From a virus, in the IMG/VR virus record IMGVR_UViG_3300045988_090463, positions 1 to 64,000 of that record: a DNA stretch of 64,000 nt; one strand, written 5' to 3'. The position numbers were made by a program, and so were the translations under genes. Position 1 is the first letter of the stretch, and every line of letters begins with the position of its first letter. The notes under the pieces were generated by a model. That model worked only from the letters and a program-made list of their open reading frames with translations, ran no database searches and was not told where the DNA came from. Of the stretch, positions 5,603 to 58,036 are shown piece by piece.

Positions 5603-6463
5603 CTATGTTTTTCTTTTCTTATCGCCACGCAATTTTCTGATATATTTTCCTTTATCAGTCACGTAATGATGAAAGCCCAGATAACACAAGCCCATGCGAA
5701 ACGGTACAATTTGTGATTTAGGGTTTAGTTCCAGTCTAAGGCTTTCAATCATCATTCGGATTGCTTCAAGAATTTCTCTGGCATCTTCTTTCGTTTTACA
5801 AATCACATAAAAATCATCGTTGTATCGTCCGTAATATGGATTTCCAAATTCAATCGTTATCATCTGATCCAGTGAATGTAAAAGCAACAATGCGTACTTT
5901 TGATTTACCTGATTTCCTAATGGAAGCCCGGGATTACCTGTACTGTCAATAAACAAATGGTTCAACCAGACTGTAAAATCATCATCAAAGTAATAATCCA
6001 AAACATCTTCCATGATTTCATGGTCTATGCAATAAAAGTATTTGTGAATATCACATTTTACAATCCAACTATTCATTCCATTTTTTTTATAGAAATCCAA
6101 CATTTGATTTCTTAACCCGTCCATTGCCATATGTTGCCCTTTTCCTTGCTGCCCGGCAGTGTTCCATTTAATCAGGATATTTTCAAGTTTCGGTGTCAGA
6201 ATGTAATCAGAAAAGCATCTCTGCACTACTTTATCCTTAAATGCACATGATTCTATCGTGCGCTCTTTTGGCTCATGAATTTGAAATTTATTATACGGAT
6301 TTATGGTATACGTTTGACTTTCCAATTGTTCCTTCAAGAGATGAATGCCTTCAAGAGACAAATTAGAAAATCTTGCAGTACCTGAATTAAATTTCTTACC
6401 GCTCTTAACTTTTTTGTAAGAACGATATAAATTCTCAAAATTTGCAACAATTTCTTTATCCAT
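5603..6463 (-). CDS. DGR reverse transcriptase
   Basis: RT motifs including LPLGNQVNQ (DGR-type IGxxxSQ-like box) and YGRYNDDF (YxDD). Lies directly downstream of a TR that matches two VRs. Confidence 0.85.
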   Translation of the reverse strand: MDKEIVANFENLYRSYKKVKSGKKFNSGTARFSNLSLEGIHLLKEQLESQTYTINPYNKFQIHEPKERTIESCAFKDKVVQRCFSDYILTPKLENILIKWNTAGQQGKGQHMAMDGLRNQMLDFYKKNGMNSWIVKCDIHKYFYCIDHEIMEDVLDYYFDDDFTVWLNHLFIDSTGNPGLPLGNQVNQKYALLLLHSLDQMITIEFGNPYYGRYNDDFYVICKTKEDAREILEAIRMMIESLRLELNPKSQIVPFRMGLCYLGFHHYVTDKGKYIRKLRGDKKRKT

Positions 6464-6567
6464 TTATTTTGTTCCTTTATATTTGTCCATTGCGGAAAGG
6501 TTATGCATTTGCTTGTATCTTTTCTGATTTCAGCTTTACGCTTACTCTGTCTGCATGTGATCCATGT

Positions 6568-6636
6568 TGGGCGAACACCATTTTCGTTGTTGTAATTGTT
6601 GTTGTTGATATAGCCCGAAGGGGAAACAACGGTATT
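6568..6636 (-). repeat. DGR template repeat (TR)
   Basis: 69 nt. On the - strand it reads AAT ACC GTT GTT TCC CCT TCG GGC TAT ATC AAC AAC AAC AAT TAC AAC AAC GAA AAT GGT GTT CGC CCA. It has 23 adenines, mostly in AAY codons. Confidence 0.85.
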
Positions 6637-6658
6637 CGCAGTGCGTAACCTGTGAAAA

Positions 6659-7030
6659 TTATCTTTTTCTGTCTTTTGTTCTCCATGAAATAGTCATGTA
6701 CTTTATATCTTTTACCATTTGCGACCATGCTTCCATTCCACCGGAATTGATAATTCCTAATTCATATGAAAGTTCTATAAAGTACATCAACTCATCACAA
6801 TGAGTAATGGCTTTTGTTTGAAGTTCTAATCGCTCTCTTTTATAATCTTTCAGATCAGTTCGGTTGGCTTCAAATAGTGACTCATAAATTTCCAATGCTT
6901 TATTTTGCATTTTATCTACAAGTGAAAACCTGTATTTTTTCGGGTATCGTCTGGCATTACTCGTAACTATTAATGTATGCTTTGCAAGTTACTTGGCCTT
7001 TATTATTACCTTTAAATCTTCATTCGCCAT
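6659..7030 (-). pseudogene. avd: DGR accessory variability determinant (avd), interrupted by in-frame TAA
   Basis: ATG 7030 overlaps the target-gene stop (TGATG). The product MANEDLKVIIKAK-TAA(6989-6991)-LAKHTLIVTSNARRYPKKYRFSLVDKMQNKALEIY... has the size (123 codons) and PKKYRF box of four-helix-bundle Avd. Only 83 aa follow the next ATG (6910). Confidence 0.7.
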
Positions 7031-7635
7031 CAATCATCATTTCCTGATTCAAAGATTGAAGAAGAAAAGATACAAACTGGGCGAACACTATTATCGCCGT
7101 CGCAAATGAGGTAGTCGATACAGCCCGAAGCGGAAACAACGGTAATTGTTGTGCTGTAATCATTTACTGGTGTACTCCATGGCGTAATCAACCACCACCA
7201 TTTCAACATGTTCGGCAGCAATTTACGATATTTCCGGTACTCATCCACAGTCAAAAGTGAAATCCTATCTTTACAATGTCCATATTCTGTCTGACCGTCC
7301 ATAGAAAGTAAATCTCGATCAAACTCAATAACTGCATCCTCTCCAAGCTCGTCCGTAATTTTTTTAAGAAAACGAGTATTTAACTCATTTCTCAGTTTAC
7401 TCGAAATCCAGTTATTTGAAGCTGAATCAAATGTTCTTTCTTTTCCATCAAATCCATTCAAAATGGCAAAATATCCTTTTTCTGTTTTATCCAGGATCAG
7501 CCATTCCATACCAGCAAGTTCAATAGCTTTTCCGATTTCCGGCTTTCCGATGTACTTTTTCTTGAATTCCGTGAATTCTTTACTTAATCTGGATAATTCA
7601 TCCTCAAAATATTTCAGATTTTTCTTCATAATCAT
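7030..7635 (-). CDS. DGR variable (target) protein 1
   Basis: 201 aa with a helical N-terminus. The C-terminus WWWLITPWST...TVVSASGCIDYLICDGDNSVRPVCIF contains VR1. Paralogue of 7632..8237. Confidence 0.8.
   Translation of the reverse strand: MIMKKNLKYFEDELSRLSKEFTEFKKKYIGKPEIGKAIELAGMEWLILDKTEKGYFAILNGFDGKERTFDSASNNWISSKLRNELNTRFLKKITDELGEDAVIEFDRDLLSMDGQTEYGHCKDRISLLTVDEYRKYRKLLPNMLKWWWLITPWSTPVNDYSTTITVVSASGCIDYLICDGDNSVRPVCIFSSSIFESGNDD
7078..7146 (-). repeat. DGR variable repeat VR1
   Basis: Aligns to TR without gaps. 12 differences fall at TR adenines and 2 at non-adenines (7089, 7131). Confidence 0.8.
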
Positions 7636-8237
7636 TCCTCCGCCTTAGATACAAAGATATTAGATTTTAAGATACAAACTGGGCGAACACCATTTACGAC
7701 GCTGCAATCGCCGTTGTAGACACAGCCCGAAGGGGAAACAACGGTACAGGTTTTCTCCAATCCACGTTCTTTCGTTGACCATGGTGATAATGTCCAATAC
7801 CAGTCGTTTAAACACGGATTCGGTGTGATATCTGTATATCCGCGTGCTTCATCAAACGTAATCGGTCGAATTTTACAATCAACAGTCCCTAATTTCTGTC
7901 CATCCGCAGTGATAATATATGCTGTGTGTGTCTCGATATTTCCTGCCCCGAATTCTTCTTCGAAGTCTTTCAGGATTTCAGTGTCACACAGTTTCTTTAC
8001 CTTTGATGTTTTGTAATCTGAGGTATCACCAAACTCTACATTTTCTTTCACCAGATCGAGTGAAATAATTTTCGTTGTATATACATACTGTTCCAGAACC
8101 TTGTATTTACGCTTTCCAGTGGTCTGAAAAACATCTCCACGTTTCAGCATTGACAGTGCAACCTTGTCAGCTTTTTCCTGTTTTTCCAGCAGTTCAACGA
8201 GTTCCTTGGCTTTCTTTAAAATTTCTTTATTGTTCAT
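7632..8237 (-). CDS. DGR variable (target) protein 2
   Basis: 201 aa. The C-terminus WYWTLSPWST...TVVSPSGCVYNGDCSVVNGVRPVCIL contains VR2. ATGA overlap with target 1. Confidence 0.8.
   Translation of the reverse strand: MNNKEILKKAKELVELLEKQEKADKVALSMLKRGDVFQTTGKRKYKVLEQYVYTTKIISLDLVKENVEFGDTSDYKTSKVKKLCDTEILKDFEEEFGAGNIETHTAYIITADGQKLGTVDCKIRPITFDEARGYTDITPNPCLNDWYWTLSPWSTKERGLEKTCTVVSPSGCVYNGDCSVVNGVRPVCILKSNIFVSKAEE
7680..7748 (-). repeat. DGR variable repeat VR2
   Basis: Aligns to TR without gaps. All 13 differences fall at TR adenines. Confidence 0.85.
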
Positions 8238-8238
8238 A

Positions 8239-9183
8239 TCACATCTCCTCCTGTTTCATAAAATCCGGAATTTCTGGTTCTTTACCTGCTGCCGGAACTG
8301 GTTCTTTCTCGGCAGTCTTTACGACTTCTGCGACTGTTGGCTGTTTAGGCTGTTCTTCAATTGCCATTGGTTCTGGGATGAATTCCTCTTTATTGGCGTG
8401 CTGTTCGATTTCATATGCAACATCAGCTGCAAAAGCGTCATTTCTTGAAACTGTTTCTGTATCATCGTCCGCTTCCTGTACGAAAACATCACCATGAGTG
8501 TTGATGATCTGCTTTAAGGCACGATTGATAACGGTTTTCTTTGCCATCTGATCAGTGAATTTCTGGTGTGTGCCATTCCCATTTTCCTTGTATCCGAAGC
8601 CCTGTGACCAAGCTTGCTTAATCTGTTTGATGTTCATTACTTCCAAATGCTTCGCCCCATCTTCCATCAGCACAACTGCGTATGCTCCAAGGATTTTTTC
8701 GTTATCAATATTCATAAAATCCTGTTCGTGAGAATCCAGAACCTTATTTCCATCTTCAATATGATATTTGAATTTGTCTCCTTGGTAGATGATCTCTGCG
8801 TGAATATCTTTCATTCCGTATCTTCTGGCAATCGTCATATTTCCGAAATATGATCTCTGGAACTGACACTGTCCGCTGTAAGCGATGAAATACCCCTGTT
8901 TTTTCTGTACCGAAAGTCCCAGTGTCGCCATGTTCATAAGACTGTTTGCGATGCTAATCTGGCTACAAGATTCCAGAATTGGTTTGTTATTCCTGTCTTT
9001 CGTTTCCTTGAGAACTAGATATGCCCCCATAAGCGCATTGCTCAAGTTGTAGTCTTTTGGGAACGAAAGACCATATTTACATTTTTCTTCAAGCTGTTTT
9101 GTCAATCCGTCAATAAACTGATTGTTAATTACAACTGCTGCCTGCTGTTCTCCTACTGTTGCTACCTGTGTTTTGTTTGCCAT
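8239..9183 (-). CDS. recT: RecT-family single-strand annealing protein
   Basis: 314 aa. SIANSLMNMATLGLS ... GYFIAY ... KFTDQMAKKTVINRALK matches the RecT family pattern. Confidence 0.8.
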   Translation of the reverse strand: MANKTQVATVGEQQAAVVINNQFIDGLTKQLEEKCKYGLSFPKDYNLSNALMGAYLVLKETKDRNNKPILESCSQISIANSLMNMATLGLSVQKKQGYFIAYSGQCQFQRSYFGNMTIARRYGMKDIHAEIIYQGDKFKYHIEDGNKVLDSHEQDFMNIDNEKILGAYAVVLMEDGAKHLEVMNIKQIKQAWSQGFGYKENGNGTHQKFTDQMAKKTVINRALKQIINTHGDVFVQEADDDTETVSRNDAFAADVAYEIEQHANKEEFIPEPMAIEEQPKQPTVAEVVKTAEKEPVPAAGKEPEIPDFMKQEEM

Positions 9184-9484
9184 TTTAATTCTCCTTTTAT
9201 TTTTTTATACTTCCCTCAGGCACATACATAGTGAATTGAAATTCAAAATAAAAATCTATGCTACGCTGTTCTAATCTTTGTTGTGTTATTATGTAGTGTC
9301 CTATTTTAGTGAAACCTCAATCCATCGTGAATGTACCTGAGAGTTATGCTCAGTGGCATATGAAACAGGATGAAGTAACTTGTCTTTTTCTGTTTTTTCC
9401 TTTTCTGTCCTGTTCTGTATTTGCTTGAAATTTTCTATATATCCGGGCGTTCACCCGGATTCATATGCCACCGAAAATCTCTTA
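9184..9484 (-). repeat. non-coding tract with CA-rich boxes (left arm)
   Basis: No ORF with a start. Boxes at 9266-9300 and 9381-9424. Long-range stem 9215-9225 / 9331-9341. Confidence 0.6.
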
Positions 9485-10168
9485 TTAAATAATAGTTACA
9501 TTTTCTGGATTAATGTGATATCTGCCGTTTCCGTTTGCTCGCTGTGTTCCGATTCCGATATACTTTCCGCTGGTCTCGATCAGCTGTAAAACTGTCTCAT
9601 GTGGAAATACAATGTCGGGGCAAGATACTTCAATAATAGTTCTCCAATTATGAAATACATTGCTACTGCAAAGAACCGGGCTTGCACTGATTCCAGATGT
9701 AGGAACGATATTGCTAACCACTTCAACATCACTAAATGTAACTGGACAAATAGATCCTGCCATTGAAAGAGAACGCTTGATGTCTGTTCCTTTCTTTCCG
9801 GTTGAATCCTTAAAGAACGTAATAAATGTCTCAGTAAATGCTTTCTTAAATGCCTGTGTAAGAATGCAAGGGCGATTATCTTTCATATATGATTCCCATT
9901 CTTCCTGCGTGTAAAGAGAAATATCTTCATCGTGAAATTCAATCGGTTTTTCCCAGTGAATGCCTGTAATCAAGCCCTCCCAAATATTTTTTGACTGGTT
10001 ATAGATTTCTGGCATTTTTGTTCCTTTATCGTGCGCCTGTTTCCAACATTCAGCCTGTTCGTAGTAACGACTTCTCTTATGGAGAATCAGGTCTGTATCA
10101 CCGATAAGTTCCAGTTTTAATGTTGTTTCTTTTAAAGGTTCGATTGTAAATGTTTTTGATTTTGCCAT
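9485..10168 (-). CDS. hypothetical protein (227 aa) embedded in the CA-box array
   Basis: Start ATG 10168 behind GGAGGG; the track extension to 10366 crosses repeat DNA. C-terminal IGIGTQRANGNGRY glycine loop. No family recognised. Confidence 0.65.
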   Translation of the reverse strand: MAKSKTFTIEPLKETTLKLELIGDTDLILHKRSRYYEQAECWKQAHDKGTKMPEIYNQSKNIWEGLITGIHWEKPIEFHDEDISLYTQEEWESYMKDNRPCILTQAFKKAFTETFITFFKDSTGKKGTDIKRSLSMAGSICPVTFSDVEVVSNIVPTSGISASPVLCSSNVFHNWRTIIEVSCPDIVFPHETVLQLIETSGKYIGIGTQRANGNGRYHINPENVTII

Positions 10169-11208
10169 TGTGTTTTCCCTCCGAATTTTATGATTTGATT
10201 TATAGTTTCTGTTTGCGCAAACACTCAAACGGACTAATCTGCAATAATATCTGTTATATAATGTCGTGTTCTGTCGTATATTATTCTGTTCTGTCATGAA
10301 TTTTTTTATGTTGCGGAATAATCCGCTTGAATCTCTGCGCAAATTCCAGATATACTTAGCTGACAATAGAAAACGTGTCTTGTGTTGTGTTATTGTTTAC
10401 TGTATTATTTTGTTCTCACATATAAGGTTTTATGGTTTCCTGTTATGACAGTTTCTACTGCCAGTTAAATACATCTGTGTTGAATGCTCGGTAGGTAACA
10501 TGAATTGTCTTGCAGTGTCATATACTGTGTTATTCTGTATTGTCCTATGGTATCGTTTAGTATCCTGTGTGACATTTTTCATGCCACCTACCCAAAATTC
10601 AAATTTTGGAGAACTGCTTTGCAGACGATATAAAGGTCATATTTTTGTCGTATATTTTGCTATCGTATACTTTGCTATCATATGATGTCGTGTGGTGTTC
10701 TATGTTGTTTTGCTTTGACGGTTATACCGTCTGTAAAACAGCCCTCCGTTGAAGTGTTGTGTTGTATTGTTCTGTGCTGCTATTTCCTGCTATAAGATTT
10801 TTTATCCTATAATAAGTGTTCACAACACTCGTCACTCTGCACAAAAGAAAGAGATACTGCACTATACTGAATTATTTTATTTTGTTTTGTTGTGAGTTAT
10901 CCTGTCTTTCTGCTTATGCAGACTGATAAATGCTGTGGTTTCCTACGCTCATAAACCTGTAAAATTAAGCGAATATTTTGTTTTAACCTATTTTGTTGTG
11001 TTCTGTATTATCGTGTGATGTATTTCATTTGCCCATTTTACAGGCATATCAACGTAGGAAGTTTGCCGCTACTGCACTCATAAACCTACAAGAATACAAG
11101 TTTTGCATAATATGCTGTTCTATTGTGCTGTATCGTGCTTTGTTGTGCGTTGTTGTGTTCTGTGCTCCTACTCCTGTAGGAATATCAGCACAGTAGCAGC
11201 TTTGACAT
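10169..11208 (-). repeat. non-coding tract with at least 8 CA-rich boxes (right arm)
   Basis: 1040 nt without a credible ORF. - strand ACAGAACA / AACACAACA boxes alternate with hairpin-capable unique segments. Confidence 0.65.
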
Positions 11209-11655
11209 TTAATTAATCATTTCCCATATTTCTTCGTATTCCGAGATATTCTGGAATTTCTGCTTTATTGCCAGAAGTTCACTCCTGCAACGTTCTACAA
11301 GTGCTTTGTATTCGTCTGGTTTATTTAAAATCAGCTTTGTTGGTTTATATCCAGATGAACCGTCAGTTTTGTAGAAAACTCTGATTGTTGTCGGCTCCGG
11401 TTCTTTATCTGGCTTTATCTCGACGATTCTAAGATTTCTTACAACCGATCTGGCTTCCTGTACTCTCCATTTCTCGGCAGCTTCGGTATCGTCCCATGTA
11501 AAGCACTTGTGAAGTTCAGTATTGCTATCTCTTGCTTTGTCAAGAATCTGCTGTGGCGTAGCTGATTCTAATTCATCACAGATTTCCATGATCTCATCTG
11601 CACATTTCTGTGCATCGGCTTTAAATCTATATGTTCCCCAAGTTGCTAACTGCAT
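11209..11655 (-). CDS. hypothetical phage protein
   Basis: 148-aa ORF with a good RBS context. No family assigned. Confidence 0.6.
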   Translation of the reverse strand: MQLATWGTYRFKADAQKCADEIMEICDELESATPQQILDKARDSNTELHKCFTWDDTEAAEKWRVQEARSVVRNLRIVEIKPDKEPEPTTIRVFYKTDGSSGYKPTKLILNKPDEYKALVERCRSELLAIKQKFQNISEYEEIWEMIN

Positions 11656-11677: not shown

Positions 11678-11908
11678 CTACTCGCAATAGCTTCTACTGC
11701 AAAACGGGCATCCTGTAATCAGATGATTTCCGGCACTTTCCACCGAAATACCATGTGTTTTCTTGCCGTATCTGGTTCTTCCATTTTCGGAATAGATATT
11801 CTGATGGCAGTCCCAACAAATACCATTGTCCGGTGCAAAACACGGATATTTTTTCTTATCACAGAACTGTTCTTGTGCCTTGATAGCTTCTGAAATATTG
11901 TACGTCAT
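11678..11908 (-). CDS. Cys-rich zinc-binding protein
   Basis: CWDC...CPFC plus further Cys/His residues. 76 aa. Confidence 0.55.
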   Translation of the reverse strand: MTYNISEAIKAQEQFCDKKKYPCFAPDNGICWDCHQNIYSENGRTRYGKKTHGISVESAGNHLITGCPFCSRSYCE

Positions 11909-11909
11909 G

Positions 11910-13886
11910 TTAGAATTCCTCCACTTTCAACTCGTTGTCAGATACCTTCAAGTAAATAACCTGCTGTTCCATTTGAGGGAATCGTTCTTCATTCACAGAT
12001 TCCGCATCGTCAATCCAAATTGGAAGTTTCAATCCGTTCAGTTCCTGTAATCCTGCCACAAGGTCAATGTTGCACAGAATCTGATCAGAGTGATTCAATC
12101 CATCAAAATATCCGATTCCGTCACAAATCATCTTGCAAACTTCCACCGGCTCACCGTCCTGCGTATAGTCCAAAAATTGAAACTGAAAGTGCTTGAAATG
12201 TGGATTGATAGCTTCCGCAAGCTTCTGATTCTTTTTGATGGAAAATTCTTTCAACATGTCAAGTTTCTGCTGAATATCGGAATCTTCCTGTCCTAATTTC
12301 TTTCTGTCCGCATTTAGTTGTTCGAGAGTTTCTGCCTGTTTCTGAACTGCCTGTTTTGCCATCTCAATTTTTGTTTCGATTCCTGTAAGTTCCTTTTCGG
12401 CAGACGTTCTTTCTGCCTGAACTGCTGCCTTTTCCTCAGAATTATTAGTCAGTCCGTCAAGCTGTTCCTGTTTCTTCTGGATTTCTGCTACAACTGCCTG
12501 ATACTCTTCGTTTCCAGACACGTCTGGATCCGCAATGCTTTCTAATTCTTTGCTAGTTTTTGAAATTTCGGTCAAAAGGATTGCAATGCTTTTCTTAGAT
12601 GCCTCAATATTTTTTTCCAGCTGTTCTCTCTTGATTTCGGCTTTTTTCTTTTCCTCTACTGTTTTTTTACCTTCTTCATTGATTTCTCTGAGATTCTGCT
12701 GTTTTGCATTCTCGAAATCTGTTTTTTTGTCCAACTCAGCTTTGATTCTCTCCTGCTTTTTCTGTTCGAATTCTGCTTTAAGTCGTTCCATTTCGTCTGC
12801 CGGAAGAACCTGACCACAAGTCGGGCAAATGGCAACCGTAGGGTCGAATTGTTCATTCTGAATATCTTCCAGTTTAGAGCTGTTATCATATTCTGCCGCA
12901 TACTGTGCTTTATATTTTTTCTGTAACTGCAAAATCATCGACTCAAGGCGTTTTGGATTTTCAGTTTTGGACAATTCGTTTTCAAGATTACGCAGATGAT
13001 TTTCTTCTTTCATCTTTTCGATTTGCCTGTCATTTAATAAGGAAACGATTTTTCTCTTTTCTTCCTGTAATGCTTCTGCTGCATTTGAGACGATTGCATC
13101 TCTGGACTTCTTAAGACCTACAATTTCATAGGAAAGTTCATCGTATGCTTTTCCAGAATCACTCAGCCGTTGTTCTTTCTGTCTCAGCTCGCTCAGATGA
13201 TTTAAAACTTGTCCTCTCTTTTCTTCAAGGACTGTTGCGTCTGGTATTCCTTGTTCCTTTAAGGTATCAATCTCAACCTTTTTGACGTCAATTTTCTTCT
13301 GGATATCTTTTCTGTCTTTGTTGAGTTTTTTCACAACTTCCTCGACAGAATGATTCTTGATGATTTCCGAAACTTCTGGATTGTCCTGCAATACTTTATC
13401 CGCATTGAACCCTGCCATCTTTTCAAGCGTTGCTCTGGCACTTGCTGTTGATTTTCGAAGTTCATTCAGGAATACTCTGGCATTGCTGCACATCATAATG
13501 GTTTCTGGGTCTGCAATTCTTTTTAAGAAATCTTTGTATTTTGTCTGGTTATAATCGAACCCATCAACCTGATATTTTGTGGTGCTGGAAGATTTACCCT
13601 TCTTCGTTTCCTTACGGATCATGGTTTCTTCTCCATCAATCAGAAGTGTGAGTTCTCTGGATACGACACCCTCAACTTCTTCTCCGTCTTCTTTTCTTCT
13701 GACATTATTCGGAGATGTACCGTCTGCAAGCTTTCCGGTTAGTATGTCAAAATATGCGTCCATCAACGTTGTTTTACCCTGGCGATTCTTTCCGAAAACC
13801 ATCGTTCGTGGTGCAAACTGATACTCCGCAGACTCAAACTTCTTGTAGTTTTCAATATTAAGCTGTTTCAATTCTACTGTTTTCAT
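11910..13886 (-). CDS. Rad50/SbcC-like AAA ATPase with coiled coil and CxxC hook
   Basis: Walker A GKNRQGKTT, about 400 aa of coiled coil with central CPTCGQ, and Walker B LPIWIDDAES. Confidence 0.75.
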   Translation of the reverse strand: MKTVELKQLNIENYKKFESAEYQFAPRTMVFGKNRQGKTTLMDAYFDILTGKLADGTSPNNVRRKEDGEEVEGVVSRELTLLIDGEETMIRKETKKGKSSSTTKYQVDGFDYNQTKYKDFLKRIADPETIMMCSNARVFLNELRKSTASARATLEKMAGFNADKVLQDNPEVSEIIKNHSVEEVVKKLNKDRKDIQKKIDVKKVEIDTLKEQGIPDATVLEEKRGQVLNHLSELRQKEQRLSDSGKAYDELSYEIVGLKKSRDAIVSNAAEALQEEKRKIVSLLNDRQIEKMKEENHLRNLENELSKTENPKRLESMILQLQKKYKAQYAAEYDNSSKLEDIQNEQFDPTVAICPTCGQVLPADEMERLKAEFEQKKQERIKAELDKKTDFENAKQQNLREINEEGKKTVEEKKKAEIKREQLEKNIEASKKSIAILLTEISKTSKELESIADPDVSGNEEYQAVVAEIQKKQEQLDGLTNNSEEKAAVQAERTSAEKELTGIETKIEMAKQAVQKQAETLEQLNADRKKLGQEDSDIQQKLDMLKEFSIKKNQKLAEAINPHFKHFQFQFLDYTQDGEPVEVCKMICDGIGYFDGLNHSDQILCNIDLVAGLQELNGLKLPIWIDDAESVNEERFPQMEQQVIYLKVSDNELKVEEF

Positions 13887-14500
13887 GCTGTTTTATCCTC
13901 CAACCAATATGCTGAAACTTCATAAGCCGTTCTTTTTTCAACCTCAGTTTCAACTTTTTTTGTGTATTCTCGGCTCTGTATTCTTCCTTGCAAAAGAATG
14001 TTATCTCCAACTTCGCAACCGCCAATATATCTGGCATCTCTTCCCCAGCAAATGCACGGTATGTAGTCAGATATTCCATGTGGTCGGTTTACTGCAAGAA
14101 GGATATCTGCGATTTCTCTTCCGTTTGGTGTCTTTCTGTATACTGGCGGTTTACAGATAAATCCGTCTAAAAGAATATTGTTGGTGTGATATGTGCCTTC
14201 CTCTGCAAACTTAATTTCTCTTGCGAAAACAAAGAGAATTAATTTACTGTGTTTGTCATCGTGCTTGTTGTAAGAACGGAACTGTCCGTAAACTTCAACC
14301 ATTTCTCCGGTATAGTCCTGTGTTACATCAATAAGCCTTTCGGATACCATAACTGGAAGAATATCCTTTGTATCGCTCAGTCGTTTTGCCGATACCTGCA
14401 TTGTGTAAAACTTTTCTCCATATGTTTCATGGCTAAATTCAAACTTGGATTCAATTGTCCCAATCAGTGTTGCCTGATTGTTTTCTAAAAGTTTATTCAA
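13883..14500 (-). CDS. OB-fold single-stranded DNA-binding protein (two OB-like halves)
   Basis: SSB-like strands in both halves (ATLIGTI...VYGQFRS; LLDGFICKPP...LLQGRIQSREY). Sits in the recombination module. Confidence 0.6.
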   Translation of the reverse strand: MNKLLENNQATLIGTIESKFEFSHETYGEKFYTMQVSAKRLSDTKDILPVMVSERLIDVTQDYTGEMVEVYGQFRSYNKHDDKHSKLILFVFAREIKFAEEGTYHTNNILLDGFICKPPVYRKTPNGREIADILLAVNRPHGISDYIPCICWGRDARYIGGCEVGDNILLQGRIQSREYTKKVETEVEKRTAYEVSAYWLEDKTA

Positions 14501-29892: not shown

Positions 29893-30022
29893 ATAGATAA
29901 CCTCCATGTCGTTAATGTGTGACTGCCTTGTAGCCACAGATCCATGATTTATAAAAACAACAGGCAGGTGCATCATGGAATTGCACTTGTCCCCCGTCGG
30001 GTTAGCCTGTTGGTTTTACCAA

Positions 30023-56513: not shown

Positions 56514-56573
56514 ACCATTCATAGAAAGGTAAGATAAAAATGAAATCCTTCCAATGATTGCAGTTCATTGGAA

Positions 56574-56656
56574 CGGTGCATCCGTGATTCGAACACGGAC
56601 AACATTTCTGTTGGAAGACTTAGCAAGTCTCTCTGTTACCATTACAGCAATGCACC
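56574..56656 (-). tRNA. tRNA-Ser(GCU)
   Basis: Manual cloverleaf: GGTGCAT acceptor, anticodon loop TTGCTAA, long variable arm CAAC-AGAAAT-GTTG, T-arm CCGTG-TTCGAAT-CACGG. Confidence 0.7.
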
Positions 56657-56734
56657 ACTTAACTAACCAAATCTGATTTTATTGTATCGTCAAAAAATCA
56701 AAAAAAACGGTGGGAACCTTATTCGCAAGAGCTA

Positions 56735-56759
56735 CGCCCACAAGTGGAATCGAACCACT
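56735..56759 (-). other. isolated T-arm plus acceptor-3'-strand-like fragment
   Basis: AGTGG-TTCGATT-CCACT followed by TGTGGGC-G. No matching 5' acceptor strand or anticodon arm found within 250 nt. Confidence 0.35.
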
Positions 56760-56992
56760 ACGCTGCACCTAACTCGCTCCGTATGTTTTATATAAGAAAA
56801 CCAGAAAGAAAACCACTTCTCTATCCTGCTATACACTGTTTGGAAGAACCATTTCAAGCACGTTCACTTATTGACTACTAGAGGAAATTCACTTTGCCGA
56901 TAAGTAATACATACTCGGAACTCGGCCAACATTCTGCCATGTATTACCCTGTGCTTTTCCTACCACCAAACTTTCAGTCTCCAAACAGTGAA

Positions 56993-57076
56993 TGGGAGAA
57001 GATGGAGTCGAACCATCCGAACCACAATGGCAACAGATTTACAGTCTGCCCCGCTACCTCTACGGAATATTCTCCC
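56993..57076 (-). tRNA. tRNA-Tyr(GUA)
   Basis: GGGAGAA acceptor, anticodon loop CTGTAAA, long variable arm, T-arm GGATGG-TTCGACT-CCATC. Confidence 0.75.
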
Positions 57077-57390
57077 AAAACCCGGATTCCCGGGTTAGCA
57101 ATATGTTTATCGTGTTATGCTTTCCACTAGGCTGTTTTATGCTGTGTCAGTCACACAGAGTTGTTTCGGATATTATTATGCCTTTTTGGGCTATTTTATG
57201 CTTCTTGAAAACTCCCTTGTCATCAATGCGCGCTTGTGATGGCTTATTGAAACTAAGAAACATTCATCGGACGGGAAATCAGATCAAGCACAAGCCTATG
57301 CCGTTACATATCTTTGCTCATTCTGATTCACATACGCTCATCCGAAAGTTTTTTCTGCCCATAAAACGGATGGGCAGCATATGGAAGAAA

Positions 57391-57463
57391 TGGAAATTCT
57401 GAGATTCGAACTCAGGACTTCCCGGTTATGAGCCGGGCGTTCTAACCACTGAACTAAATTTCC
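57391..57463 (-). tRNA. tRNA-Met or Ile2 (CAU), elongator type
   Basis: Canonical cloverleaf GGAAATT/AATTTCC, D-arm GTTC-AGTGGTTA-GAAC, loop CTCATAA, T-arm CTGAG-TTCGAAT-CTCAG. Confidence 0.85.
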
Positions 57464-57685
57464 TGAGTAGAAAATATTACCAGCACCTCAAAGCCATATT
57501 TTCTACTGTTGCGATTCTTTGCCACCAGTCGCAACAAAGGCTCCCTTTTTTGGTTTTGCTGTCACCTATACGGGAATCCCATCCGGGACGTTTGAAGCCC
57601 CTTTAGGCAGCTCCGTTGAGCTAGATGGGTATCGGAGGGTCTATGTGAAATAAACCATTGCCAGGTACATGCGCAACCCGACAAA

Positions 57686-57757
57686 TGGGGCTAGTGGGAT
57701 TCGAACCCGCGAATACAGCAGTCAAAGTGCTGTGCCTTACCACTTGGCGATAGCCCT
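57686..57757 (-). tRNA. tRNA-Gln(UUG)
   Basis: Anticodon arm CAGCA-CTTTGAC-TGCTG, T-loop TTCGAAT. Has an A1:C72 and a C50:A64 mismatch. Confidence 0.7.
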
Positions 57758-58036
57758 AAAATCTTTCTCCCACTCCGCACCATTACAAAAGCAGGAGAAA
57801 GAATTGTGTGTGATATAATTACTATTTCTGCAATGCAAACAATATATATGTGGAGAAAATCGAATTTAATATAATCGACTACAGAAATTTTTTTACACTA
57901 AGTTGGATGTAAAGAATATTTGCTTGCGTACCGCTCCACAATCGGGCAAGCGTATCCTTCCGGTTTGATTATAGGTTTAACCCGTTCTATGATAAAAAAC
58001 GGAATAATCCTCGCAGGAAATGCTAAAAGCATATTT

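What the first reader, a model, noticed from the sequence alone, without database searches (positions are those of the whole stretch)
9184..11208. 1.3 kb of same-orientation CA-rich boxes alternating with hairpins, flanking a single ORF
Between 11209..11655 and recT, the only credible CDS is 9485..10168. The other 1341 nt have no - strand ORF with a start codon, and the + strand ORFs there are Cys/Val/Leu runs created by TG repeats.
- The - strand shows at least 10 C/A-rich tracts. Their + strand coordinates are 9266-9300, 9381-9424, 10261-10297, 10375-10419, 10515-10545, 10635-10714, 10751-10780, 10871-10898, 10991-11020 and 11106-11168.
- The tracts are built on ACAGAACA / AACACAACA. On the + strand there are six exact TGTTCTGT copies plus at least four one-mismatch variants, all in one orientation.
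- They alternate with unique foldable segments: palindromes GTTTGCGCAAAC (10211-10222) and CCAAAATT..AATTTTGG (10592-10609), GCGGA..TCCGC (10313-10326), and a long-range stem 9215-9225 / 9331-9341.
- A box CTCATAAACCT is duplicated at 10948-10958 and 11077-11087.
Candidate readings are replication-origin or partition iterons, or a processed multi-unit non-coding RNA or protein-sponge RNA. Neither is established.
Basis: seen in the sequence. Interest (0 to 1): 0.7.

Follow-up and report, generated by a model that had tools for sequence, protein, structure and literature searches.

The report
Phage VIPR guide-RNA array, A-type
The "CA-rich boxes alternating with hairpins" are ten guide-RNA units of a phage VIPR system, a CRISPR-like RNA-guided DNA-recognition system first described in a 2026 preprint, and here it uses a repeat code not given in that preprint's text and appears aimed at the recombinase genes of sibling phages.

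Summary
The 1,341 noncoding bases hold ten long hairpins on the minus strand, the sense strand of the flanking genes. Each closes a 59-81 nt A-rich loop.

- **Loop structure.** The loops are phased pentanucleotide repeats, A-Y-A-N-N, with 9-15 units each. A1 and A3 are conserved and the NN pair is hypervariable.
- **The enclosed ORF.** The only ORF inside the array (9485-10168) is a RAMP protein. Its best match among solved structures is the SUSP1 Vipr protein.
- **Known system.** This fits VIPR (bioRxiv 10.64898/2026.04.26.720920): a Vipr protein plus vrRNAs of 9-16 pentanucleotide repeats, which read double-stranded DNA through the NN pairs with a 1-nt skip.
- **Test of the rule.** In each of two locus sets, 26 guides reach at least 90% NN match at skip 1, against 0 for shuffled guides. 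Skips 0 and 2 give nothing. Hits fall on codon positions 1-2 of recT/SSAP, vipr and ATPase genes of sibling phages.
- **Window guides.** H10 matches an alternative SSAP allele 19/20. No guide matches the window itself.

Differences from the published text: the anchor is AYA rather than GGY, guides are closed as hairpins, and the candidate accessory protein (148 aa) has no fold match. Iterons and a protein sponge are not supported.

The parts
11209..11655 (-). 148-aa protein, the candidate Vipr accessory protein (Vap) of this clade
   Evidence: A homolog lies upstream on the same strand, with the array between it and the RAMP gene, in 77 of 80 distant RAMP loci. The other neighbours are not conserved: ATPase 17, recT 15, SSB 5 and the 76-aa protein 2 of 80. 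It matches phrog_15946, of unknown function. The AF2 model has pLDDT 88 but no PDB fold match.
11065..11200 (-). vrRNA-like unit H1. Stem 11200-11167 / 11098-11065; loop with 11 A-Y-A-N-N units (tract 11103-11169).
   Evidence: RNAalifold on 71 homologs. 31 pairs, 10 of them compensatory. Folds alone at -53 kcal/mol, z -7.4. Phased units.
10940..11060 (-). vrRNA-like unit H2. Stem 11060-11037 / 10963-10940; loop tract 10971-11033 (10 units).
   Evidence: (I2); z -6.0. The inner stem covaries with the loop allele: AAAAU/AUUUU against AUUGA/UCAAU.
10832..10926 (-). vrRNA-like unit H3. Stem 10926-10913 / 10845-10832; tract 10854-10912 (9 units).
   Evidence: z -4.8. Absent in some relatives.
10752..10830 (-). 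vrRNA-like unit H4. Short stem 10830-10821 / 10761-10752; tract 10745-10814 (11 units). The weakest hairpin.
   Evidence: z -4.5. The 3' arm overlaps the tract, and the unit is absent in some relatives.
10607..10748 (-). vrRNA-like unit H5. Stem 10748-10716 / 10639-10607; tract 10639-10721 (13 units, the cleanest phasing).
   Evidence: 30 pairs, 8 compensatory; z -6.7. 13 of 15 units are A.A. Example of compensation: 10745/10610 is AU in 36 sequences and UA in 30.
10480..10602 (-). vrRNA-like unit H6. Stem 10602-10578 / 10504-10480; tract 10494-10580 (15 units).
   Evidence: 23 pairs, 8 compensatory; z -5.0. Compensation: 10599/10483 AU 54 and UA 17; 10598/10484 AU 54 and CG 17; 10588/10494 GC 59 and UA 12, none with any broken pair.
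10346..10478 (-). vrRNA-like unit H7. Stem 10478-10453 / 10371-10346; tract 10369-10425 (10 units).
   Evidence: z -5.4. 10475/10349 is GC in 41 sequences and AU in 29.
10212..10343 (-). vrRNA-like unit H8. Stem 10343-10312 / 10243-10212; tract 10245-10317 (12 units). It ends about 45 nt before the RAMP start codon.
   Evidence: I1; 27 pairs, 7 compensatory; z -7.5.
9485..10168 (-). vipr-like gene: a 227-aa single-gene RAMP protein embedded in the array
   Evidence: AF2 model pLDDT 76, pTM 0.72. The top 50 Foldseek PDB hits are all Cas7-family RAMPs: Csm3, Cmr4, Cas7-11 and type VII Cas7, with E down to 4.5e-7. The C terminus carries a G-loop, GIGTQRANGNG, fitting GhGxxxxxGxG. The family profile's best PDB sequence hit is the SUSP1 Vipr protein 36pp_D: E 2.1e-3 with the close-family profile and 7.3e-7 with the wider profile. 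In 79 of 80 distant homolog loci, periodic tracts lie on the gene's own strand, almost all within 1 kb upstream of it.
9350..9474 (-). vrRNA-like unit H9, downstream of vipr. Stem 9474-9450 / 9374-9350 with an inner GC hairpin at 9443-9462; tract 9368-9440 (12 units).
   Evidence: (I3); z -6.9. Its best skip-1 match is 20/24, to EFAIEGDGNDSL in sibling phages. That is below the 90% threshold and so only suggestive.
9213..9343 (-). vrRNA-like unit H10, just upstream of recT.
   Evidence: z -4.8. Its NN code GG CT TA AC AC GA GA GC GC GA matches 19/20 at 1-nt skip to GGCCTTTACACTACGGAAGAAGCTGTCGAA (GLYTTEEAVE). That sequence lies in the alternative SSAP allele of sibling phages, L012 5556-5585 and L338 18567-18596.
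8866..8895 (-). Site in the window's own recT (codons GYFIAYSGQC) that is matched by a guide of a sibling phage
   Evidence: The guide at L005 4727-4786 matches 18/20 NN at 1-nt skip, in frame with NN on codon positions 1-2. The same peptide motif, spelled with different wobble bases, is matched in L325 and L327.

Best explanation
The interval is the guide-RNA array of a VIPR (Viral Interference Programmable Repeat) system.

**Shown here**
- The minus strand, sense with the flanking genes, folds into ten hairpins. Eight lie upstream and two downstream of a RAMP gene (vipr, 9485-10168).
- Each hairpin loop is a run of 9-15 phased pentanucleotides, A-Y-A-N-N. A1 and A3 are nearly invariant, and the NN pair is close to maximal entropy.
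- The same arrangement, 148-aa gene then tracts then RAMP gene, recurs in 221 phage loci. These include RAMPs only 27-50% identical to one another.
- The NN dinucleotides, read with one skipped base between them, match genes of sibling phages far more often than guides with shuffled unit order. The matches are in codon register.

**Inferred from the VIPR preprint, not tested here**
- The array is transcribed and cut into roughly 100-nt vrRNAs.
- Vipr subunits polymerise on the repeat tract, one per pentamer. They hold the AYA anchor and present the NN pair.
- The ribonucleoprotein binds double-stranded DNA whose sequence reads NNxNNx..., and represses it.

**Likely role.** In this phage family the targets found are the allelic recT/SSAP genes, the vipr genes, the SbcC-like ATPase and the 148-aa gene of related phages. 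The likely role is therefore interference between co-infecting sibling phages. Skipping the wobble base makes a guide robust to synonymous escape.

**Window guides.** Guide H10 targets an alternative SSAP allele, and H9 probably targets another sibling gene. The targets of H1-H8 were not found.
For: **Protein**
- Foldseek's top 50 hits are all Cas7-family RAMPs.
- The C terminus carries a RAMP G-loop.
- The best sequence-profile hit in the PDB is 'SUSP1 Vipr protein' 36pp_D, at E 7.3e-7 and 2.1e-3.

**RNA structure**
- Eight hairpins come out of RNAalifold on 71 homologs.
- 96.8% of cells form canonical pairs.
- 47 pairs show double-sided change, against 8-15 in controls with the partner slid by 1-3 columns.
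- G-U pairs number 1697 and A-C mismatches 259 on the minus strand. On the plus strand's own best fold the numbers are 468 and 517.
- Alifold energy is -362 kcal/mol for the minus strand and -253 for the plus strand.

**Repeat code**
- In 97 non-redundant loops, A autocorrelation is 1.38 at lags 5 and 10. The Fourier z-score at period 5 is 30 for G.
- Over 542 guides the median is 11 units. Entropy per unit position is 0.73, 1.54, 0.25, 1.92 and 1.96 bits.

**Linkage**
- In the 64-kb window the tracts occur only here.
- All 141 family loci carry tracts, most with 8-11, and none lies on the antisense strand.
- 79 of 80 distant RAMP loci carry tracts, 262 on the sense strand and 0 on the antisense strand. 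Almost all lie within 1 kb upstream of the RAMP gene.
- The 5-nt periodicity is also seen in those upstream regions without using the scoring matrix.

**Targeting rule**
- Guides with at least 90% NN match, real against shuffled: skip 0, 3 against 2; skip 1, 26 against 0; skip 2, 2 against 2.
- Replicate on 1.34 Mb of new loci: skip 1, 26 against 0; skips 0 and 2, 1 against 2 each.
- 12 of 13 distinct target sites lie in long ORFs on the sense strand, with NN on codon positions 1-2 and the skip on the wobble base.
- One match is 24/24, to the vipr motif GDGDLVLNKMND.
- No window guide matches the window above the level of shuffled guides.

**Published definition of VIPR:**
Against: - The anchor trinucleotide is A-Y-A. 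The preprint describes GGY (YNNGG) and the variants NNNGG, YNNNG and NNNNG.
- Similarity to the characterised SUSP1 Vipr is weak and limited to 60-100 C-terminal residues. Pfam's RAMP model is hit by only 2 of 27 members, at E about 0.01.
- No expression, processing or binding data exist for this locus.
- Closing each repeat tract in a long hairpin is not an architecture named in the preprint. In the distant loci only about 41% of tracts have clearly pairing flanks.
- Eight of the ten window guides have no target. Nine-unit cores of H5, H6 and H8 gave no exact hit in IMG/VR. The two metagenome hits for H5 look like chance matches in GC-rich DNA.
- Nearly all matches are to the sense strand, whereas the preprint reports both strands.
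- Sequence identity to the sense strand could in principle reflect where guides come from rather than what they target.
Confidence: 0.87

Rival explanations
1. Protein-sponge or assembly-scaffold RNA. Each closed loop of about 65 nt, made of 12-13 A-Y-A triplets spaced by 2 nt, would wrap round a ring-shaped oligomer, either a host regulator or a phage protein such as RecT. This is how the trp leader's 11 (G/U)AG repeats wrap TRAP. On this reading the NN positions are mere spacers.
For: Strict 5-nt phasing, and loop medians of 58-68 nt closed by a stem. The array sits in a recombination module next to recT and SSB. The TRAP analogy rests on textbook knowledge, not on a test made here.
Against: The NN 'spacers' match genes of sibling phages at 1-nt skip: 26 guides against 0 for shuffled guides, found twice, in codon register. 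Pure spacers would not do that. The conserved partner across distant phages is the RAMP together with the 148-aa protein. RecT (15/80) and SSB (5/80) are not conserved partners.
Confidence: 0.05
2. DNA-level element: iterons of a replication origin or partition site, with hairpins extruded from single-stranded DNA.
For: Same-orientation short repeats that are strongly enriched. Location in the replication and recombination module. G-T wobble is also tolerated in single-stranded DNA, so the strand asymmetry alone does not exclude folding of the minus-strand DNA.
Against: - The repeat-bearing tracts are hypervariable between close relatives, whereas iterons must co-evolve with one initiator.
- There is no GC-skew switch at the site.
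- The element travels with a RAMP RNA-binding protein across unrelated phage backbones that lack the replication genes.
- The tracts are always sense with that gene: 0 of about 1,600 tracts lie on the antisense strand.
Confidence: 0.02
3. Anti-defence decoy: an RNA anti-CRISPR or nuclease decoy. Together with a Cas7-like protein it would form aberrant complexes with host type III CRISPR components, or it would soak up an ACA-cutting toxin such as MazF.
For: The protein resembles Csm3/Cmr4. ACA, ACAG and AGAAC are enriched in the loops. RNA-based anti-CRISPRs are known from the literature, but this idea was not tested here.
Against: The period is 5 nt, whereas Cas7 backbones use 6 nt (established structural knowledge). 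No CRISPR repeat similarity was found: there is no Rfam hit, and the one CRISPR-DR match scores 15.9 bits against a gathering score of 50. The NN code matches sibling-phage genes rather than being arbitrary.
Confidence: 0.03
4. Cis-regulatory leader of the downstream genes, for example a series of Rho-loading (rut) sites or RNase III sites that time recT expression.
For: G-poor unstructured tracts of 60-80 nt on the mRNA-sense strand. Long stems that would be RNase III substrates. Both points are inference.
Against: The tracts are A-rich (50% A, 17-19% C) rather than C-rich. The 5-nt phasing and the coded NN positions are unexplained. The array is linked to the RAMP gene, not to recT.
Confidence: 0.02

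Closest known systems
VIPR systems (Vipr protein plus vrRNAs), bioRxiv 10.64898/2026.04.26.720920 / PMC13142463; characterised examples are Escherichia phage SUSP1 and a Pseudomonas fulva prophage (type II)
   Same: - Phage-encoded, stand-alone RAMP with a G-loop.
- Long intergenic regions flanking it, on the same strand, that hold arrays of roughly 100-nt units.
- Each unit holds 9-16 pentanucleotide repeats: a conserved trinucleotide plus a hypervariable NN.
- NN pairs match DNA with a 1-nt skip, and the skip falls on codon wobble positions.
- Targets lie in competing phages and include other VIPR systems.
- No self-targeting.
- A small accessory gene lies next to the system.
   Different: - The anchor is A-Y-A, not GGY. 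The alternatives named in the text (NNNGG, YNNNG, NNNNG) all keep a G.
- Each repeat tract is closed by a long covarying stem formed by its own 5' and 3' flanks. The preprint describes a 3' tail with a pseudoknot instead.
- No hammerhead ribozymes were found (no Rfam hit).
- The candidate Vap is a 148-aa protein with no fold match.
- Nearly all matches found are on the sense strand.
- The protein is only distantly similar to SUSP1 Vipr.
CRISPR arrays with class 1 Cas7 backbones (types I and III)
   Same: A RAMP protein that polymerises on a guide RNA. A multi-unit array with a conserved part alternating with a hypervariable, target-specifying part. Periodic interruption of guide-target pairing.
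   Different: - The conserved parts are ten different stems, not one repeat.
- The variable parts are low-complexity 5-nt repeats, not contiguous spacers.
- The period is 5 nt rather than 6.
- No cas1/cas2, Cas10, Cas5, Cas6 or Cas11 gene lies within about 4 kb of the array; the rest of the window was not annotated.
TRAP with the trp leader of Bacillus (11 (G/U)AG triplets with 2-3 nt spacers wrapped round an 11-mer ring)
   Same: About 11-13 trinucleotide anchors spaced every 5 nt on single-stranded RNA. This implies an oligomer that binds one triplet per subunit.
   Different: The anchor is AYA, and GAG is depleted in the loops. The spacers carry information. The partner protein is a RAMP, not a TRAP-like beta-sandwich. 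The neighbouring 76-aa protein is Cys-rich and looks like a zinc ribbon.

Membership tests
VIPR system | A Vipr protein: a RAMP homolog outside any CRISPR context, with an RRM core and a G-loop | tested here: met
   Foldseek's top 50 hits are all Cas7-family RAMPs. G-loop GhGxxxxxG(h/x)G in both alleles. The best PDB sequence hit is SUSP1 Vipr 36pp_D, at E 7.3e-7 and 2.1e-3. No cas gene lies within about 4 kb.
VIPR system | A thumb domain, and a single RRM with no second RRM domain | tested here: inconclusive
   The 227-aa model has one beta-alpha-beta core plus a beta-hairpin at 147-173. No residue-level superposition on a Vipr or Cas7 thumb could be made with these tools.
VIPR system | vrRNAs made of 9-16 tandem pentanucleotide repeats: a conserved trinucleotide alternating with a hypervariable NN | tested here: met
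   Median 11 units (range 8-23) over 542 guides. Entropy per position is 0.73, 1.54, 0.25, 1.92 and 1.96 bits. Periodicity statistics.
VIPR system | Repeat consensus YNNGG (GGY/NN) or one of the published variants NNNGG, YNNNG, NNNNG | tested here: not met
   The consensus is A-Y-A-N-N, and no position conserves G: G makes up 7%, 2%, 1%, 37% and 19% of the five positions. Published variants are listed. Figure S17 of the preprint, which shows the logos per type, could not be read.
VIPR system | vrRNAs encoded in the intergenic regions flanking vipr, on its strand | tested here: met
   Eight units upstream and two downstream in the window. The same holds in all 141 family loci and in 79 of 80 distant loci, with no tract on the antisense strand.
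VIPR system | The NN dinucleotides specify a DNA target with a 1-nt skip, and the skip is usually the codon wobble base | tested here: met
   This is a sequence-match test only. Skip 1 gives 26 guides at 90% or more against 0 for shuffled guides, in each of two locus sets. Skips 0 and 2 are at background. 12 of 13 sites are in frame with the skip on the wobble base.
VIPR system | vrRNAs are expressed as RNAs of about 100 nt, co-purify with Vipr, and the ribonucleoprotein binds and represses double-stranded DNA | not testable with these tools
   This needs small-RNA sequencing, pull-down and binding or reporter assays.
VIPR system | An accessory vap gene in a minimal two-gene locus | tested here: inconclusive
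   A 148-aa gene is syntenic in 77 of 80 distant loci. It has no detectable DNA-binding, nuclease or helicase domain and no fold match. Whether it equals one of vap1-6 could not be checked.
CRISPR array | Near-identical direct repeats separated by unique spacers of similar length | tested here: not met
   The conserved blocks are ten different stems. Only H1 and H2 share a box of about 25 nt. There is no significant Rfam CRISPR-DR hit.
Replication-origin or partition iterons | Sequence-conserved repeats bound by one initiator, functional as double-stranded DNA | tested here: not met
   The repeat-bearing tracts are the hypervariable part. The conserved signal is strand-specific pairing with G-U wobble.
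Any Rfam 15 RNA family | A covariance-model match at the gathering score | tested here: not met
   No hit in the region at the gathering threshold. Only chance-level hits appear at E up to 10.

The most novel reading that the evidence does not exclude
This is a VIPR type not covered by the seven described so far, with these features:
- The Vipr subunit grips an A-Y-A anchor instead of GGY.
- The guides are presented as stem-closed loops.
- The accessory protein is a 148-aa protein with no fold match.

It would be used by a large family of roughly 80-kb human-gut phages to silence each other's recombinase (SSAP/recT), vipr and ATPase alleles. That could itself drive the allele replacement seen at recT and vipr.
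Probability: 0.55. Interest if true: 0.78.

Novelty: new variant of a known kind. Interest (0 to 1): 0.68.

Why it matters
VIPR is a newly reported RNA-guided DNA-recognition system, proposed as the ancestor of the CRISPR RAMP proteins. So far it has been characterised only with GGY-anchored guides from Proteobacteria phages.

- **A second anchor.** An A-Y-A-anchored clade would show that the "anchor plus NN" code is separable from the identity of the anchor. It would give a second, orthogonal protein-RNA pair for programmable repression.
- **A natural data set.** This work collected 542 guides, many with identifiable targets. They can be used to study how guides are made and exchanged.
- **Biology of the phages.** Sibling gut phages appear to aim their guides at each other's recombination genes and at each other's VIPR genes. 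The wobble-skipping makes guides insensitive to synonymous escape. That offers an explanation for the cassette-like replacement of recT and vipr alleles in otherwise near-identical genomes.

Tried and rejected
**Searches that found nothing in the interval**
- tRNA genes.
- Rfam families, at the gathering threshold and at E up to 10.
- GenBank phage DNA.
- GTDB genomes, searched for the RAMP.
- An excess of sigma-70 promoters or intrinsic terminators.

**Ideas rejected**
- *Relation to the neighbouring DGR.* Its template repeat is also AC-rich. But it is not picked up by the periodicity scan, and the tracts have no variable-repeat partner.
- *TRAP-like 76-aa neighbour.* The protein is Cys-rich and looks like a zinc ribbon, and it is not conserved with the array (2 of 80 loci).
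- *RecT or SSB as the loop binder.* Neither is syntenic in distant loci.
- *Gram-positive Hfq (AN)n motif.* The periodicity is 5, not 2.

**148-aa protein.** The model is good but has no fold match.

**Literature.** Searches on CA-rich phage RNAs, Cas7-like phage proteins and pentanucleotide-repeat binders gave nothing relevant. The PDB profile hit then supplied the name Vipr.

**Targets of the window's upstream guides**
- Nine-unit cores of H5, H6 and H8 gave 0 exact hits in IMG/VR.
- An 11-unit H5 core gave two metagenome hits in GC-rich DNA outside any sensible reading frame. I judged these to be chance.
- There was no excess of matches in 1.58 Mb of structural-gene regions of related phages.

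**Not done**
- The second genome-contig scan was not used. GC-rich NN patterns give chance codon-periodic hits in a collection that large.
Full report
**1. Observation**

The interval lies in a minus-strand operon. In order, the operon holds:
- SSB (13883-14500)
- an SbcC/SMC-like ATPase (11910-13886)
- a 76-aa Cys-rich protein (11678-11908)
- a 148-aa protein (11209-11655)
- 1,040 noncoding bases
- a 227-aa ORF (9485-10168)
- 300 noncoding bases
- RecT (8239-9183)

The motif count is real. There are six exact TGTTCTGT copies, against 0.22 expected from dinucleotide shuffles (0 of 1000 shuffles reach six). Twenty copies have at most one mismatch. All are in one orientation and none is on the other strand. 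AC-rich 30-mers on the minus strand cluster here within the 64-kb window.

**2. Anatomy**

Related phages are abundant in IMG/VR. I collected 141 loci, mostly from contigs of about 80 kb. All keep 800-1,250 nt of noncoding sequence between the 148-aa and 227-aa genes, in 76 distinct versions. These align over their full length.

Conservation alternates.

RNAalifold on 71 homologs folds the minus strand into eight consecutive hairpins. Each closes a large open loop. Two more hairpins lie in the 300-nt spacer.

The structure is well supported:
- 96.8% of 191 pairs x 71 sequences are canonical.
- 47 pairs show double-sided changes, against 8-15 for controls with the partner slid by 1-3 columns. 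Some swaps are clean, such as 10598/10484, which is AU in 54 sequences and CG in 17 with none broken.
- G-U pairs outnumber A-C mismatches 1697 to 259 on the minus strand. On the plus strand's own best fold the counts are 468 and 517.
- Alifold energy is -362 kcal/mol for the minus strand and -253 for the plus strand.
- Each window hairpin folds alone with a z-score of -4.5 to -7.5.

The folding strand is therefore the one transcribed with the genes.

**3. The loops**

Median loop length is 58-68 nt, and composition is about 50% A. In 97 non-redundant loops, A autocorrelation peaks at lags 5 and 10 (1.38) and dips at lags 1, 4, 6 and 9. The Fourier z-score at period 5 is 30 for G, and no other period stands out.

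Phasing the loops gives a unit A-Y-A-N-N. Over 542 distinct guides, entropy per position is 0.73, 1.54, 0.25, 1.92 and 1.96 bits, and the median is 11 units per guide.

A scan with this matrix finds ten tracts in the whole window. All are on the minus strand and all lie in this interval. In the 141 loci it finds 8-11 tracts per locus as a rule and none on the antisense strand.

**4. The ORF inside the array**

The 227-aa protein has no significant Pfam, NCBIfam or PADLOC hit, and only a weak match to a PHROG of unknown function (phrog_4652, E 8.4e-6).

Its AF2 model (pLDDT 76) matches only Cas7-family RAMPs in the top 50 PDB hits: Csm3, Cmr4, Cas7-11 and type VII Cas7. Two alleles that are 28% identical align end to end, and both finish in a RAMP G-loop.

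The family is small: 167 representatives at E <= 1e-3 among 1.84 billion proteins.

Eighty loci holding distant homologs (27-50% identity, many different phage backbones) were fetched:
- 79 carry periodic tracts, 262 on the RAMP-sense strand and 0 on the antisense strand. Nearly all lie within 1 kb upstream of the gene.
- The 5-nt periodicity is visible there without using the matrix.
- A 148-aa homolog is syntenic in 77 of 80 loci. RecT, SSB, the ATPase and the 76-aa gene are not.

The conserved module is therefore: 148-aa gene, then array, then RAMP gene.

**5. Identification**

A profile of the RAMP family hits one solved structure, "SUSP1 Vipr protein" (36pp_D). E is 7.3e-7 with the wider profile and 2.1e-3 with the close-family profile.

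The name led to bioRxiv 10.64898/2026.04.26.720920. That preprint reports the following:
- VIPR systems are phage-encoded.
- They consist of an ancestral RAMP (Vipr) plus vrRNAs of about 100 nt, encoded in the intergenic regions around vipr.
- Each vrRNA has 9-16 YNNGG repeats (conserved GGY, hypervariable NN) followed by a structured tail.
- The ribonucleoprotein recognises double-stranded DNA through the NN pairs with a 1-nt skip, usually the wobble base of a codon.
- It represses competing phages, and some guides target other VIPR systems.
- Seven types are described, with repeat variants NNNGG, YNNNG and NNNNG.

**6. Test of the mechanism**

I took positions 4-5 of each unit as the code and searched 1.94 Mb of fetched loci plus the window, with all tracts masked. 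The control was guides with the order of their units shuffled.

| Skip | Guides at >= 90% NN match | Shuffled control |
|---|---|---|
| 0 | 3 | 2 |
| 1 | 26 | 0 |
| 2 | 2 | 2 |
| 3 | only homologous arrays | - |

The result repeated on 1.34 Mb of newly fetched loci: skip 1 gave 26 against 0, and skips 0 and 2 gave 1 against 2 each. The two locus sets come from the same phage family and recover mostly the same target genes. In 1.58 Mb of structural-gene regions there was no excess.

Twelve of 13 distinct sites lie in long ORFs on the sense strand, with NN on codon positions 1-2. The targets are:
- three different SSAP/recT alleles
- the vipr gene itself: GDGDLVLNKMND matched 24/24, and GKNLWEGLITGI
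- the SbcC-like ATPase
- a 148-aa homolog

For the window specifically:
- H10 matches an alternative SSAP allele 19/20.
- H9 reaches 20/24, which is only suggestive.
- The window's own recT (8866-8895) is matched 18/20 by a sibling's guide.
- No window guide matches the window above the shuffled level.

**7. What remains open**

Nothing here shows expression, processing, binding or repression; those steps are inferred from the preprint.

The locus departs from the published description in several ways. The anchor is AYA. The tracts are closed by hairpins, which is clear in this family but seen for only about 41% of tracts in distant loci. The 148-aa partner has no fold match. Whether this clade falls inside types I-VII could not be decided, because the figures and data tables are not held.

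The targets of H1-H8 were not found.

**8. Verdict**

This is a real, strongly structured feature. It is neither an origin nor a passive sponge. It is the guide array of a VIPR-like system, best filed as a new variant of a very recently described kind.

Noticed in passing
window 5603-8237 (- strand): A diversity-generating retroelement (DGR) lies just downstream of recT. It has a reverse transcriptase (5603-6463), a template repeat at about 6536-6634, and two variable repeats (7046-7144 and 7648-7746). The variable repeats sit at the 3' ends of two tandem 201-aa DUF6273 genes. Its AAC-rich template repeat is not detected by the pentamer scan.
   Followed up: partly
L062 5479-6120 compared with window 9485-10168: The vipr gene has been swapped as a cassette. 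The array of L062 is 93% identical to the window's, and its recT is 99% identical, but its RAMP is only 28% identical.
   Followed up: partly
L012 4992-5813, L031 4949-5782, L065 6245-7051, compared with window 8239-9183: At least three unrelated SSAP/recT alleles occupy the same slot in sibling phages. They share only a C-terminal acidic tail (...IPDFMKQEEM / ...IPSFMSQEEM). The guides found here hit the allele-specific parts of these genes.
   Followed up: partly
protein P0318 (1063 aa): A distant family member is a fusion of a ResIII/DEAD-box helicase with a C-terminal RAMP-like domain at residues 930-1062. The preprint mentions helicase accessory genes in some VIPR types.
   Followed up: no
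L142 2626-3453 (NCBI GCA_029782595.1): P0079 is a 275-aa RAMP with an internal duplication of about 48 residues. Its locus shows three tracts upstream.
   Followed up: no
window 29942-30012 (- strand): A match to the Rfam family int-alpA RNA (52 bits, gathering score 35.8) lies at the 5' end of a block of minus-strand genes.
   Followed up: no
window 56573-57758 (- strand): A cluster of four tRNA genes: Ser-GCU, Tyr-GUA, Met-CAU and Gln-UUG.
   Followed up: no
window 11678-11908 (- strand): A 76-aa protein with seven cysteines, including CxxC pairs, that looks like a zinc ribbon. It matches phrog_20040. It is conserved in the close family but is found in only 2 of 80 distant VIPR loci.
   Followed up: partly
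all skip-1 target sites: In the first locus set, 25 of the 26 guides scoring at least 90% match the coding (sense) strand of the target gene. The preprint reports targets on both strands. The bias is unexplained. It could reflect how guides are generated rather than how they act.
   Followed up: no
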